Origin: a virus
Lineage: Duplodnaviria > Caudoviricetes
DNA: 44,457 nucleotides
IMG/VR virus record: IMGVR_UViG_3300020043_003642
Coordinates: 1-44,457 of that record
Reading direction: 5' to 3' (one strand)
Shown here: positions 20,152-43,072 of the stretch, piece after piece
Layout of the letters: the number at the start of each line of letters is the position of its first letter
Numbering within the stretch: the stretch's first letter is position 1
The notes under the pieces: model-generated
The model's database searches: none
What the model saw: only the letters and a program-made list of their open reading frames with translations
What the model was told of the DNA's origin: nothing
Program-made: the position numbers and the translations under genes

Positions 20152-20595
20152 ATGCGAAGAAAAAGTACTGAAAGGGAAGTAGGGTTGAAATATGGATTCA
20201 GGTCTGGCTTAGAGGAAAGAGTAGCAGCCTCGTTTGTAGATGCAGGATATAGTTTCACATTCGAAGAGAAGACTATAGAGTTCACCCAACCTGCTAAGAA
20301 GAGGAAATACACCCCAGACTTCGTGCTAAGTAAGCTAGATGGAGGTGAGATGGTAGTTGAGACTAAAGGCCGTTTCGTACAACAAGACAGGCTTAAGATA
20401 GAGATGGTACTTAAAGAACACCCAGACTTAGACTTAAGGATCTTGTTCTCTAACGCTAAGGCTAAGCTATCTAAGACCTCTAAGACTACGTATGGGGACT
20501 GGTGCGATAAGCGAGGGATTAAGTGGGCACACAAGGAAATGCCAGAGAGTTGGGCTAACGAACTAATGTTAACAGATAAGGGCAACAAGAAATGA
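20152..20595 (+). CDS. T7 gp3-like endonuclease I (Holliday junction resolvase)
   Basis: FRSGLE, YTPDF, ETKGRF, HPDLDLRILF, SKTTYGDWC. Confidence 0.92.
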   Translation: MRRKSTEREVGLKYGFRSGLEERVAASFVDAGYSFTFEEKTIEFTQPAKKRKYTPDFVLSKLDGGEMVVETKGRFVQQDRLKIEMVLKEHPDLDLRILFSNAKAKLSKTSKTTYGDWCDKRGIKWAHKEMPESWANELMLTDKGNKK

Positions 20596-21251
20596 TATTA
20601 GATAAAATATTAAAGAAGCTGTCTGCTAAGGCTTGTTTTAAAATAGCTATAGGGTTAATCTTATTTGGTTTGTTAATGGAGCACGTACACGCTATCCCTA
20701 AAGAAGAGCCAGATACTATTACCTTTTCTAGAAGACCTTTAGAGGCCGTCAGTCTAATTGAAAGCACACCTCGTGTAATTAAACTGAATTCAGCTATCGA
20801 AGGACCTGGAGCTTACGATGATGTTATAGAGATGTTAGCTTCCCTTAATGAGAGAGACGAGGTTATAGTTGAACTAAACTCTCCAGGAGGCTCTGTGTTG
20901 GGCGGTATCCCTTTAGTGAATGCTCTCCTACAAACTAAGGCTCACGTAACCACCAGGATTACCGGAGGAGCTTACAGCATGGCTGCTGTCCTGTTCTGTA
21001 CTGGCGATACTAAGGTGATGGACCTAGGGACTGTCCTTATGTTTCACGACTATTCGGTAAGCGGCTTAACAGGAAAAGGTAACGAACTCGAACAGTTCAC
21101 GTTAAGTCTTACCAGAATGATGAGGGAGATTCTGTCAGGTGCGTGTGGAGAAATCCTTACCCCCACAGATATCGAGAACATACTCTCAGGGAAAGACTTA
21201 TATATCCACCCAGCAGACCTGAAAGGGAGACTGACAAATGGCAGCAATTGA
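20592..21251 (+). CDS. ClpP-fold serine peptidase with signal peptide/TM (paralog 3)
   Basis: LNSPGGSV, AYSMAAVLF (Ser), LMFHDYS (His), GKDLY (Asp); IAIGLILFGLLMEHVHA|IP. Confidence 0.85.
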   Translation: MILDKILKKLSAKACFKIAIGLILFGLLMEHVHAIPKEEPDTITFSRRPLEAVSLIESTPRVIKLNSAIEGPGAYDDVIEMLASLNERDEVIVELNSPGGSVLGGIPLVNALLQTKAHVTTRITGGAYSMAAVLFCTGDTKVMDLGTVLMFHDYSVSGLTGKGNELEQFTLSLTRMMREILSGACGEILTPTDIENILSGKDLYIHPADLKGRLTNGSN

Positions 21252-23633: not shown

Positions 23634-23957
23634 ATGCCATATATAAGCAAAGACAGAAGGGAACTATTAGAAAGCGCTTTATCGGAATTAAAGCTTGCTA
23701 TATGTGGTCTACGTGCAGCTCCTACGCCTGGAGATATGAACTACGTTATAACTGAGCTGTTGACAGGATACGCTAAGGATAAGGCGATGTCTGACGGCTT
23801 GCTCCCATATAAAGTCATAAATGAAGTTGTAGGCATATTAGAGTGCGCTAAGCTAGAGTTCTATAGGCGTGCAGCTGCTCCTAAAGAAGACCAAGCTATT
23901 AAGGATAACGGGGATATCCCTAGATATATATTAAACTTACCTGTAGATGGAGGGTAA
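23634..23957 (+). CDS. conserved phage protein (DUF6899-like)
   Basis: MPYI..R...GDMNYVIT...NEVVGILECAKLEFYRR..APKED..I..NGD. Confidence 0.7.
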   Translation: MPYISKDRRELLESALSELKLAICGLRAAPTPGDMNYVITELLTGYAKDKAMSDGLLPYKVINEVVGILECAKLEFYRRAAAPKEDQAIKDNGDIPRYILNLPVDGG

Positions 23958-24348
23958 AGATGTGCGTAATGTTAACCTCAACGGCCTAGACAAAGAAGTA
24001 TCTTACTACTTAGCTAGCCCATACAGCCATAAAGATCCTTCAGTTATGGAAGAGAGATACTTAGCTATCGATAACTTCGCAGCTGAGATGTTTAAGCAAG
24101 GCTTCTATAAAGTCCACGAACCTATAGCATCTTGCCACCATAAAGCTAAAAGACACCAACTACCTTCAGGGTATACCTTCTGGCAAAAGCGTGACAGGTG
24201 GCTTATAGATAAGAGTGATGCTGTGTTAGTATTAATGATAGACGGTTGGAAAGAATCTGTTGGTGTTACTGACGAGATATGGTACGCTAAGAGTCTACAC
24301 AAGCCTGTGTATGGGTACGACATTGAGGTAGGAGTTACTGTATTATGA
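23947..24348 (+). CDS. DUF1937 / nucleoside 2-deoxyribosyltransferase-like protein
   Basis: YLASPYSH, PIASCH, W..RD, GWKESVGV..EI..A. Confidence 0.75.
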   Translation: MEGKDVRNVNLNGLDKEVSYYLASPYSHKDPSVMEERYLAIDNFAAEMFKQGFYKVHEPIASCHHKAKRHQLPSGYTFWQKRDRWLIDKSDAVLVLMIDGWKESVGVTDEIWYAKSLHKPVYGYDIEVGVTVL

Positions 24349-24752
24349 CGTATAGTCAGCAAGATCTGGATATTATATATGGTGCTCTCTTAGATAAGCT
24401 AGATGAAGTAGAGCCTAAAGACAAGATATACGCAGGGGCTATCAATAAGGTCCTAATTAAAACCCAAGAGCTATCTGAAATAAACAGGTTAGATAGGTTA
24501 TGCGAAGCTGTAGAGCTAGCTAATAGCTTATTTGAGGAGGCTACTGACGGTACCTATTCTATACTCTGGAAGACTAAGTATGATGAGGTTAGGTTTGAGC
24601 TTGAGAGTTTTTGGTTAGTTGTACACGATAGTGACGGTAACCTACTAGTAGATAACAGGGACCTATTCTTGAAGTGTGTAGCTAAAGCGTGTATAAAGTA
24701 TTCAGATGTAGCTGGCGAACTATTAGATGAGGCTATGTCAGCTATCTATTAA
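24345..24752 (+). CDS. hypothetical protein
   Basis: AGGAG RBS, last plus-strand gene. Confidence 0.65.
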   Translation: MTYSQQDLDIIYGALLDKLDEVEPKDKIYAGAINKVLIKTQELSEINRLDRLCEAVELANSLFEEATDGTYSILWKTKYDEVRFELESFWLVVHDSDGNLLVDNRDLFLKCVAKACIKYSDVAGELLDEAMSAIY

Positions 24753-25044
24753 TCCCTCCGCATATGAGGACTGCTCTTTCGGGATACTAATGCAATTAGT
24801 AATCCCTCTGTTGTTGCTATCTAATGTTGGGTCATTAGTTAGAGCGTCGGCGCGAGGGGCTCCTTGTACCTGATGCCTTTCAGGCTTCCCGTTACCGGGC
24901 TTTCTTTCGCGTAGGACTTTGGCGTTATTATTGCTACACGGTCCTAAGGGCATACCCATTTAACCCATGAGTGGGAGATGTTAGACCACCTACCTTACAC
25001 GGTATCCTATTGTTTAACGTCAACAGACAGTTATTACTAGGTAC
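24753..25044 (-). ncRNA. candidate ~290-nt structured non-coding RNA
   Basis: GC-richer intergenic stretch tiled with nested helices, downstream of a dedicated promoter; strand inferred from the promoter. Confidence 0.55.
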
Positions 25045-25050
25045 AATTTA

Positions 25051-25079
25051 AATATACTGTTACTGGGTTAGTTTGTCAA
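25051..25079 (-). promoter_or_regulatory. sigma70 promoter with no convincing downstream CDS
   Basis: TTGACA-17bp-TATATT. Confidence 0.65.
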
Positions 25080-25125
25080 GTCGTATTATCTAAGTATCTC
25101 TGGTAATGATACGACTGTCTAGAAC

Positions 25126-25368
25126 TTACTGTGTAAGTTTATCGAGTAGGCGGTCGATCTTATTTTCAATGCGTGTAAGGTCATCCTTTAATTCTTGCTG
25201 CCTAACATCTAACACTTGCTGCTTTAAGTCTATCAACTTCTCAACTTCAGCATTAGACATCTTGTCTGCTAATCTTTCTTTGACCATAGATATTTCTCGC
25301 ACAACGTACACTCCGAACGGTACAACGACCGTAGCTATAACATATTGAATTATCTGTAAAATGTCCAT
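25126..25368 (-). CDS. small TM plus coiled-coil protein (possible lysis accessory)
   Basis: N-terminal TM, C-terminal LTRIENKIDRLL. Confidence 0.65.
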   Translation of the reverse strand: MDILQIIQYVIATVVVPFGVYVVREISMVKERLADKMSNAEVEKLIDLKQQVLDVRQQELKDDLTRIENKIDRLLDKLTQ

Positions 25369-42745: not shown

Positions 42746-43072
42746 TTAAACTTCGAACTCTATATCCATACCGTCTAGATCTCCCTCTTGAACAATAGCT
42801 CTACAGTGCTCATCGTAGATAAGCCTGATATTATTGTCTTTAGACGAAGGGATTCTATCCCCTGCATAAGCTATAAAGAACACCATATCGCCAACTTTTG
42901 GCTTTACAGTCCTGTCTCTAAAAGCTTCTTCCCCTAAAGAAATAACTTTCCCTACGTTCAATCCCATTTGTTCCCTATTTATCGTACTGTCATCTAAGAT
43001 GATTCCACCTTTAGACTTCTTCGATAACTTTGGAACTTCCACTAACATGTGCGTACCCAGTGCTATAGGCAT
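42746..43072 (-). CDS. groES: co-chaperonin GroES-like protein
   Basis: ALG..MLV, KSKGGIIL, GKVISLG, KVGD.V.F..YAG. Confidence 0.85.
   Translation of the reverse strand: MPIALGTHMLVEVPKLSKKSKGGIILDDSTINREQMGLNVGKVISLGEEAFRDRTVKPKVGDMVFFIAYAGDRIPSSKDNNIRLIYDEHCRAIVQEGDLDGMDIEFEV

What the first reader, a model, noticed from the sequence alone, without database searches (positions are those of the whole stretch)
24753..25079. Candidate novel ~290-nt structured phage ncRNA with its own promoter at the early/late convergence point
Seen: minus-strand TTGACA-17-TATATT (25079-25051) points into a region with no convincing CDS that is tiled by helices. These are a long-range stem 25021-25027 with 24807-24813, TAGGAC/GTCCTA (24912-24946), and CGCGA/TCGCG (24851-24911) enclosing CCCG-GUAA-CGGG (24888-24899, GNRA on minus) and CCTGA/TCAGG (24869-24884). 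There are also CTAATG/CATTAG (24821-24838), an ~11-bp hairpin (24781-24806) and a terminal hairpin (24755-24769), with A-rich joiners such as GAAAGAAAG on minus. I do not recognise it as tRNA, tmRNA, RNase P, 6S or an intron. Caveat: some helices extend with G-U pairs better on the plus strand, so strand is inferred.
Basis: partly seen in the sequence, partly recalled or inferred. Interest (0 to 1): 0.8.

Follow-up and report, generated by a model that had tools for sequence, protein, structure and literature searches.

The report
Phage ribosome-anchor RNA with pseudoknot
The gap between two gene blocks of this phage is a conserved non-coding cassette behind a predicted promoter, and its unvarying core is a roughly 45-base RNA motif, also found in many unrelated phages, that is complementary to the tail of the host's 16S ribosomal RNA and is followed not by a start codon but by a predicted pseudoknot, so it likely parks a ribosomal subunit on the RNA without translating it.

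Summary
The helices and the sigma-70 promoter are in the sequence (whole-region z -2.8), the promoter is kept in relatives, and the overlapping ORF is not. But this is not one fixed 290-nt fold: close strains swap, add or drop 50-240-nt blocks, and several proposed helices are strain-specific or broken. The same module stands in dozens of unrelated phages (Streptococcus, Lactococcus, gut phages, Pseudomonas PAK_P3, PAK_P4, LUZ100), before head and lysis genes or inside tRNA clusters, once per genome where counted. Both stems covary; a model trained without the window finds it at 44.5 bits. No Rfam family; nearest are STAB-SD (function) and the 5' end of CC2171 (sequence). Likely mechanism: 30S anchoring that shields the downstream RNA; ribosome decoy, odd start codon and ribozyme remain open. 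Transcription and ribosome binding are untested.

The parts
25051..25079 (-). sigma-70-type promoter; its -35 box lies in a duplicated copy of the last codons (LDKLTQ-stop) of the upstream 80-aa gene
   Evidence: kept in L002, L205 (read by eye) and in strain contigs X1-X4
25000..25044 (-). predicted 5' leader with a local hairpin and a conserved 10-nt block; transcription start inferred near 25044
   Evidence: z -2.2
24984..24997 (-). complement of the whole 13-nt 16S rRNA 3' tail with one bulged base (extended Shine-Dalgarno, no start codon behind it)
   Evidence: (rank 1 in window, L002, L205)
24976..24990 (-). invariant core GGUG-(6 nt)-YAUCU; can form a 4-5 bp stem that hides the Shine-Dalgarno part
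   Evidence: its loop takes 4 substitutions in X4 and a 28-nt insertion in X3
24954..24975 (-). predicted H-type pseudoknot: stem 1 24975-24973 with 24966-24964, stem 2 24972-24967 with 24959-24954
   Evidence: no difference listed here in X1-X4
24905..24952 (-). second module: helix 24946-24941 with 24917-24912, flanked by conserved GCCC and CGCGAAA blocks
   Evidence: 4 of 11 predicted pairs changed on both sides, two sequences only
24864..24904 (-). two small hairpins (GUAA tetraloop; 8-nt AAAGGCAU loop kept in L002); hotspot where relatives carry 150-240 extra bases
   Evidence: (z -3.3)
24804..24858 (-). 3' module: closing stem 24858-24854 with 24808-24804, exchangeable inner hairpin 24842-24817, conserved CAACAACAG block
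   Evidence: (z -2.8)
   Evidence: (D3)
25079..25144 (.). strain-specific 66-nt piece between direct repeats (duplicated gene end plus hairpin 25079-25116)
   Evidence: (D1, I5)
25126..25368 (-). upstream 80-aa gene (hydrophobic N-terminus, coiled coil, no family name); syntenic marker used to find relatives
24738..24959 (-). 73-codon ORF, not a gene

Best explanation
The region is a conserved non-coding cassette behind a predicted host-type promoter, whose core is a phage RNA module that likely binds the host 30S subunit by pairing with the whole 16S rRNA tail and, having no start codon and a predicted pseudoknot where the coding sequence would begin, would hold the subunit in place as a barrier that protects the RNA downstream. 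Shown: the complementarity, the lack of a start codon at the usual distance, the conservation and covariation of the pseudoknot, the spread over unrelated phages, the position near transcript 5' ends or right behind stop codons. Inferred: transcription from the promoter, opening of the small stem that hides the Shine-Dalgarno part, 30S binding, non-productive trapping by the pseudoknot (stem 1 starts about 5-7 nt after the P-site slot, inside the ribosome footprint), and stabilisation of what follows (head and lysis messages in temperate phages, structured RNA and tRNA cassettes in lytic ones).
For:: best duplex with the 13-nt tail among all sites of both strands in the window (-18.0), L002 (-18.2) and L205 (-21.0); with 8 middle bases left free, 18 of 20 distinct hits continue the 16S complement (RTCY) against 3 of 99 background GGAGGTG sites; the third base of the start-codon slot is A in 20 of 20; the bases upstream, never part of the pattern, extend the duplex (26 of 38 at or below -17 against 9.6% after shuffling); pseudoknot in 39 of 47 hits with a Shine-Dalgarno extension, 2 of 15 without, 65 of 1410 shuffles; stem 2 of 4 bp or more in 18 of 20 against 90 of 356 cross-paired; 31 cells changed on both sides, 0 of 500 shuffles, above all slid controls; model without the window scores it 44.5 bits; best of 302 kb control DNA 16.7. 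AUC-frame not tied to the next gene (13/17/17 of 47), peptides unrelated. Position about 45-90 nt after sigma-70 promoters in the window, L002, L205, PAK_P3 and within 12 nt of a stop codon in 32 of 58 copies. Precedent for start-codon-free Shine-Dalgarno stabilisers: PMC7509114.
Against: No experiment and no transcript data for this phage. With a 20-nt tail the window's site falls to shared second place and with a 25-nt tail out of the top six, and variants break the pairing beyond the 13-nt tail. The Shine-Dalgarno part is predicted to be paired inside the RNA. In PAK_P4 the next feature is a tRNA 9 nt away and in LUZ100 a mapped terminator follows, where a 5' shield is of little use. The classical barrier acts against RNase J, which gammaproteobacteria such as Pseudomonas mostly lack (recalled). 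One copy per genome with changing neighbours fits a trans-acting RNA as well. The invariant bases also fit an internal stem with a fixed G-U pair, which ribosome pairing does not explain. L002's pseudoknot is weak and the model aligned only its 5' part. The Bacteroidota test of covariation with 16S gave no real copies.
Confidence: 0.42

Rival explanations
1. The module is a ribosome decoy acting in trans: made in large amounts from late or tRNA-cluster transcripts, it would sequester 30S subunits or shield their 16S tail, shifting translation during infection.
For: One copy per genome in 5 of 5 positive records; neighbours vary freely; it sits among tRNAs in PAK_P3, PAK_P4, LUZ100 and before a tRNA-like element in L205, where tRNA processing would release it; in the window no gene follows at all.
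Against: No conserved ends or processing signals in the copies between genes; it lies outside the abundant sRNAs annotated by RNA-seq in PAK_P3 and PAK_P4; phage messages use Shine-Dalgarno sites themselves.
Confidence: 0.2
2. It is a compact catalytic or protein-binding fold (for example a small self-cleaving RNA), and the Shine-Dalgarno likeness is partly incidental.
For: About 11 invariant bases in 45 nt, a fixed G-U pair and a fixed first C-G pair of stem 1 (40 of 40), conserved loop lengths; a 28-nt insertion in the loop of the small stem is tolerated in X3; spacers before scaffolding genes and tRNA ends are places where small ribozymes are known (recalled).
Against: No score against any Rfam ribozyme model; the purines upstream follow the 16S tail also where stem 1 starts C-G and internal pairing cannot explain them.
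Confidence: 0.15
3. It is a real initiation site: the extended Shine-Dalgarno loads ribosomes on the invariant AUC (or the preceding NNA) codon to translate a throw-away mini-ORF, or catches ribosomes that have just terminated, and so tunes the next gene.
For: AUC-UCN is invariant at about 9 nt from GGAGG; extended Shine-Dalgarno sites support non-canonical starts in S. aureus (PMC13009471); 32 of 58 copies overlap or abut a stop codon.
Against: Mini-ORFs run 2 to 426 codons (median 11) with no shared peptide beyond Ile-Ser; only 7 of 47 reach the next start; frames are random; the NNA slot takes 7 different codons; stem 1 begins inside the second codon; the window and the tRNA-cluster copies have no next gene.
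Confidence: 0.12
4. The whole gap is one large ornate RNA with a fixed global fold, of which the window holds a shortened copy.
For: Conserved blocks keep their order over 440 nt in L002; relatives carry extra structured sequence at one fixed site; compensatory helix in module 2.
Against: The 5' module occurs alone in dozens of unrelated contexts; the closing long-range stem is broken; large blocks are exchanged among strains 90-98% alike; L002 folds no better than shuffles; no Rfam score.
Confidence: 0.1

Closest known systems
STAB-SD of Bacillus thuringiensis cryIIIA and the phage SP82 polypurine 5' stabiliser (as described in PMC7509114; originals not read)
   Same: Strong Shine-Dalgarno sequence without a start codon near the 5' end of an RNA; 30S binding alone thought to block decay.
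   Different: Here the conserved part is the proximal tail complement GGUGRUC plus an invariant AUCUC and a covarying pseudoknot; it is a sequence family spread over phages of two phyla, also in tRNA clusters and non-coding cassettes.
Caulobacter sRNA CC2171 (Rfam RF01867)
   Same: Its consensus begins with nearly the same 22 nt (16S-tail complement, then UCUC and a stem opening with C-G); weak scores on 4 of 7 loci, best E 0.028.
   Different: CC2171 is 159 nt, chromosomal, alphaproteobacterial, has GUG in the start-codon slot and a multi-hairpin body; scores 14-24 bits against a cut-off of 75; no match in the window.
Ribosome-entrapment leaders with a pseudoknot (E. coli rpsO; PMC7038950 passage, entrapment mechanism recalled)
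   Same: Shine-Dalgarno pairing next to a pseudoknot that has to be unfolded before an initiation complex forms.
   Different: rpsO has a real start codon and a protein repressor; this module has neither and is not tied to one gene.
GP20-a/GP20-b motifs and the six GP20-leader candidates of Fremin et al. 2023 (PMC10690425)
   Same: Structured RNA upstream of phage scaffolding genes (8 of 41 downstream proteins here are scaffolding proteins).
   Different: No gathering-level Rfam score on 20 loci including two before scaffolding genes; the one weak GP20-b match lies downstream of the module. Overlap with Fremin's unnamed candidates could not be excluded.
Large phage ncRNAs GOLLD and ROOL (PMC5737381 passages)
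   Same: Non-coding RNA in phages, near tRNAs.
   Different: No Rfam score, far shorter conserved core, modular and exchangeable body.

Membership tests
STAB-SD / polypurine 5' stabiliser | Strong complement of the 16S 3' tail | tested here: met
STAB-SD / polypurine 5' stabiliser | No start codon at initiation distance | tested here: met
   20 of 20 free slots end in A; 8 of 59 have an NUG, all at +16 to +21 inside the pseudoknot
STAB-SD / polypurine 5' stabiliser | Lies near the 5' end of the protected RNA | tested here: inconclusive
   45-90 nt behind predicted promoters in 4 phages; intercistronic or between tRNAs elsewhere; no 5' ends mapped
STAB-SD / polypurine 5' stabiliser | 30S binds and downstream RNA half-life rises | not testable with these tools
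   needs toeprint and decay assay
CC2171 (RF01867) | Score over the family cut-off of 75 bits | tested here: not met
GP20-a/GP20-b | Rfam gathering score | tested here: not met
Known small self-cleaving ribozymes held in Rfam | Model score and catalytic-core layout | tested here: not met
   no hit
Known small self-cleaving ribozymes held in Rfam | Self-cleavage in vitro | not testable with these tools
   bench assay
tRNA, tmRNA, RNase P, 6S, group I/II introns, GOLLD, ROOL, OLE, HEARO | ARAGORN call or Rfam score | tested here: not met
Protein-coding gene (ORF 24738-24959) | Frame and protein kept in relatives | tested here: not met
   1-nt deletion at 24894 in X1/X2, 79 nt replaced by 236 in X3/X4; no tblastn match at the site in L002, L189, L205

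The most novel reading that the evidence does not exclude
A widespread, undescribed class of phage RNA that captures host 30S subunits through the full 16S tail and locks them with a pseudoknot, working as a start-codon-free ribosome trap or decoy, carried once per genome like a tRNA by phages of Bacillota and Pseudomonadota, including PAK_P1-like and KPP10-like Pseudomonas phages.
Probability: 0.25. Interest if true: 0.9.

Novelty: new variant of a known kind. Interest (0 to 1): 0.72.

Why it matters
It exposes a small RNA family that sits unannotated in well-studied phages (PAK_P3, PAK_P4, LUZ100, phiLC3, SM1) and makes a sharp, cheap prediction: 30S binding through the 16S tail with no initiation. 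If it is a stabiliser, it gives a phage-wide way to set the ratio of head and lysis proteins and a portable part for expression work. If it is a decoy, it is a new kind of RNA-based control of the host ribosome by lytic phages, for which few functional small RNAs are known.

Tried and rejected
Rfam at gathering and E-value level: nothing real. blastn of the whole region and of the window's module against isolate phages and of a family member against plasmids: nothing. Pattern scans on other conserved blocks: 119 listed, all chance on inspection; 2: L002's contig and one chance; 72: only L189, a 97.5% copy of L002, is real; 9: only L002's contig; so modules 2-4 rest on L002/L189 and four strain contigs. 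Related-locus scans: none; one search gave L205 and 3 loci without the cassette; one unrelated locus. Expression: no RNA holder listed; X1/X2 are only guessed RNA and are contigs, so their depths say nothing on transcription. Bacteroidota test for covariation with the 16S tail: 45 pattern matches against 10 for the control in 401 genomes, but the 30 loci read are coding or chance (2 of 30 reach the pseudoknot score, both inside a 660-codon ORF; 20 of the 30 scored at most 16.7 bits): uninformative. Antisense idea (block 25001-24992 complementary to codons of the 80-aa gene): imperfect in L205, not pursued; judged weak. Group I intron idea for the X1/X2 insert from two short look-alike words: order of elements does not fit, only 30 letters of each end visible. 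Start-codon-free initiation after the pseudoknot: distance to the next start is not in one frame. L213 and L237 were dropped as coding look-alikes without Shine-Dalgarno extension. 41 of 48 downstream ORFs were given to (near-duplicates and look-alikes left out). Protein search gave 84 distant homologs of the 80-aa gene but no DNA context.

Full report
Setting. The window is a linear virus record, 65% complete, of a podophage whose capsid protein is 41-43% identical to those of HTVC023P, CRP-901 and DSL-LC04; the host is unknown. The finding fills the gap between converging gene blocks: plus-strand DNA-metabolism genes end at 24752, minus-strand structural genes end at 25126.

Observation. The six stem pairs I checked letter by letter are exact and the promoter is where stated. 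The region folds moderately better than shuffles on both strands (z -2.78 and -2.56); 25 of 306 genome tiles fold at least as well. No Rfam or ARAGORN call. Folding alone is therefore weak evidence; the case rests on relatives.

Relatives at the same site. L002 (exonuclease 74% identical; fourfold synonymous sites identical in 24 of 59 and 3 of 13) keeps the promoter and a series of blocks in the same order over about 440 nt. L205 (81-aa neighbour 38% identical) keeps a promoter at the gene end, the same 16-nt block as L002 and then a tRNA-like element. Four contigs of close strains show a modular body: X1/X2 carry at least 240 extra bases between 24863 and 24869 and differ below 24800; X3/X4 replace 79 nt by 236, swap the 24842-24817 hairpin for a shorter one, and lack 24759-24808 and 25079-25144, both flanked by direct repeats. 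These changes break ORF 24738-24959, which also has no match in the relatives.

The core. The best-kept block, 24997-24984 on the minus strand, is the complement of the 13 terminal bases of 16S rRNA with one bulge. With the tail taken from E. coli rrsB, it is the strongest site of both strands in the window, in L002 and in L205, and an ordinary level (-15.3) is the best in L001, which lacks the gap. With longer tails the rank drops in the window (shared second for 20 nt, outside the top six for 25 nt), so the claim is limited to the single-stranded tail. No AUG, GUG or UUG follows at initiation distance.

The family. The 16-mer shared by L002 and L205 occurs in about 160 stretches of IMG/VR (120 returned). 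Among 62 distinct contexts, 47 have a Shine-Dalgarno extension and 39 of these can form an H-type pseudoknot that starts at the same C, against 2 of 15 without extension and 65 of 1410 shuffles. Geometry is tight: stem 1 mostly 3 bp with an invariant first C-G (40 of 40), loop 1 mostly 1 nt, stem 2 4-8 bp, loop 3 mostly 3-4 nt; all four Watson-Crick pair types occur at the other positions (these counts are on hits chosen for pairing). An independent scan with the 8 middle bases free returned 25 stretches, 20 distinct: 18 continue the 16S complement (background 3 of 99), all 20 have A where a start codon needs G, and 18 have a stem 2 of 4 bp or more against 90 of 356 cross-paired controls. The bases upstream, never searched for, extend the duplex well beyond shuffles. 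On a plain MAFFT alignment of 27 members of similar geometry, 85% of cells pair and 31 change on both sides, 0 of 500 shuffles, above all slid controls (relatedness among members is not corrected). A covariance model built from these 27, without the window, L002 or L205, ranks the window's copy first (44.5 bits), finds one copy each in PAK_P4, SM1, PAK_P3, LUZ100, L002, L189 and L205, and weakly the reverse strand of the 16S end itself; it did not score the phiLC3 locus, which matched by blastn over the 3' part only. Best score in 302 kb of control loci: 16.7 bits. In X4 four substitutions and in X3 a 28-nt insertion fall in the variable middle, leaving GGUG, AUCUC and the pseudoknot untouched.

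Contexts. Of 41 downstream proteins, 14 are head or connector proteins (8 scaffolding), 6 lysis enzymes, 3 other, 6 unnamed families, 12 without hit; phiLC3 has it before the large terminase. In 32 of 58 copies a stop codon lies within 12 nt upstream. In lytic Pseudomonas phages it is in tRNA clusters: 50 nt behind a predicted sigma-70 promoter in PAK_P3, between sRNA1 and tRNA-Cys in PAK_P4, right after tRNA-Asn and before an annotated terminator in LUZ100. It is outside the annotated sRNAs. No real copy was found in 30 loci read from 401 Bacteroidota genomes or by one query in plasmids.

Mechanism. Pairing with the 16S tail is the step best supported (about 0.65-0.7 over the first, second and fourth readings together). 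The small internal stem that hides the site is predicted to be weaker than the rRNA duplex (-12.6 for the whole 53-nt segment against -18.0). The pseudoknot starts 5-7 nt after the slot where a start codon would sit, inside the stretch a ribosome must hold single-stranded (established knowledge), so a bound 30S would be stuck in a pre-initiation state. Translation from the invariant AUC gives unrelated peptides of random frame. I commit to a cis barrier that protects the downstream RNA (0.42), by analogy with start-codon-free Shine-Dalgarno stabilisers; a trans decoy (0.2), a catalytic or protein-binding fold (0.15), a non-canonical start (0.12) and one large ornate RNA (0.1) are the rivals. 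None of the functional steps was tested.

Literature seen. Searches for the combination found no description: (listings only). Passages read: PMC4933390 (PAK_P3 sRNA1/2; the module is not mentioned in the passages shown), PMC10690425 (six unnamed GP20-leader candidates; 6 supplementary files searched without hit, files 1, 2 and 4 not searchable, so overlap with those candidates is open), PMC5737381, PMC7509114, PMC3997798 (reference list only), PMC13009471, PMC7038950, PMC10884466, PMC10134795, bioRxiv 10.1101/2022.01.24.477521 (CC2171 expressed, function unknown), PMC11701678 and PMC5317160 (not informative), bioRxiv 10.64898/2026.09.22.753630 (no mention of 16S or Shine-Dalgarno). No paper was read whole. 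Most subscription journals are outside the library. The rpsO entrapment mechanism, the absence of RNase J from most gammaproteobacteria and the gene contexts of small ribozymes are recalled.

Verdict. Real feature, different anatomy from the one proposed. An apparently undescribed, widespread phage RNA module that works most likely like a STAB-SD element but is not shown to be one; the rest of the cassette is a variable set of hairpin modules of unknown role. Interest 0.72.

Noticed in passing
L205:4492-4575: tRNA-like element (47.7 bits, CCA end) with a 21-nt loop in place of the anticodon loop, missed by ARAGORN; it follows the same promoter as the module, and a 25-codon ORF with a good ribosome-binding site runs through the module there.
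   Followed up: partly
window:25060-25147: The last seven codons of the 80-aa gene are duplicated; the second copy holds the -35 box, so the promoter survives loss of the 66-nt piece, as in strains X3/X4.
   Followed up: partly
window:24863-24869 (strain contigs X1/X2) and 24866-24944 (X3/X4): Inserts of about 240 nt at one site of the cassette; only 30 letters of each end are visible, and they look structured.
   Followed up: no
window:24952-24905; L361:1547-1580; L359:1860-1890; L360 after 2558: A GCCC-opened helix follows the pseudoknot in the window, LUZ100, PAK_P3, PAK_P4 and several gut phages; possibly a second recurrent module of late leaders.
   Followed up: no
Rfam RF01867 consensus: CC2171 begins with almost the same 22 nt as the module; it may be a chromosomal relative or a small ORF with a GUG start.
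   Followed up: partly
window:13506-15153, 20592-21251, 42746-43072; L002:12163-12747: The phage encodes a ClpX-like ATPase, two ClpP-like proteases and GroES; L002 carries a further host-like ClpP next to the cassette.
   Followed up: no
window:22291-22788 and 23947-24348: dATP/dGTP diphosphohydrolase and nucleoside 2-deoxyribosyltransferase-like genes hint at altered nucleotide pools or modified DNA.
   Followed up: no
window:25172-25181 with 24992-25001: A 10-nt inverted match between the cassette's conserved block and codons of the upstream gene, kept at 9 nt in L002 but imperfect in L205.
   Followed up: partly
L359:1650-1725 and 1918-1992: PAK_P3 appears to hold two further tRNA-like stretches around the module that its record does not annotate (read by eye).
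   Followed up: no
window:3591-4160: L,D-transpeptidase (YkuD_2) gene in a lytic-looking podophage.
   Followed up: no
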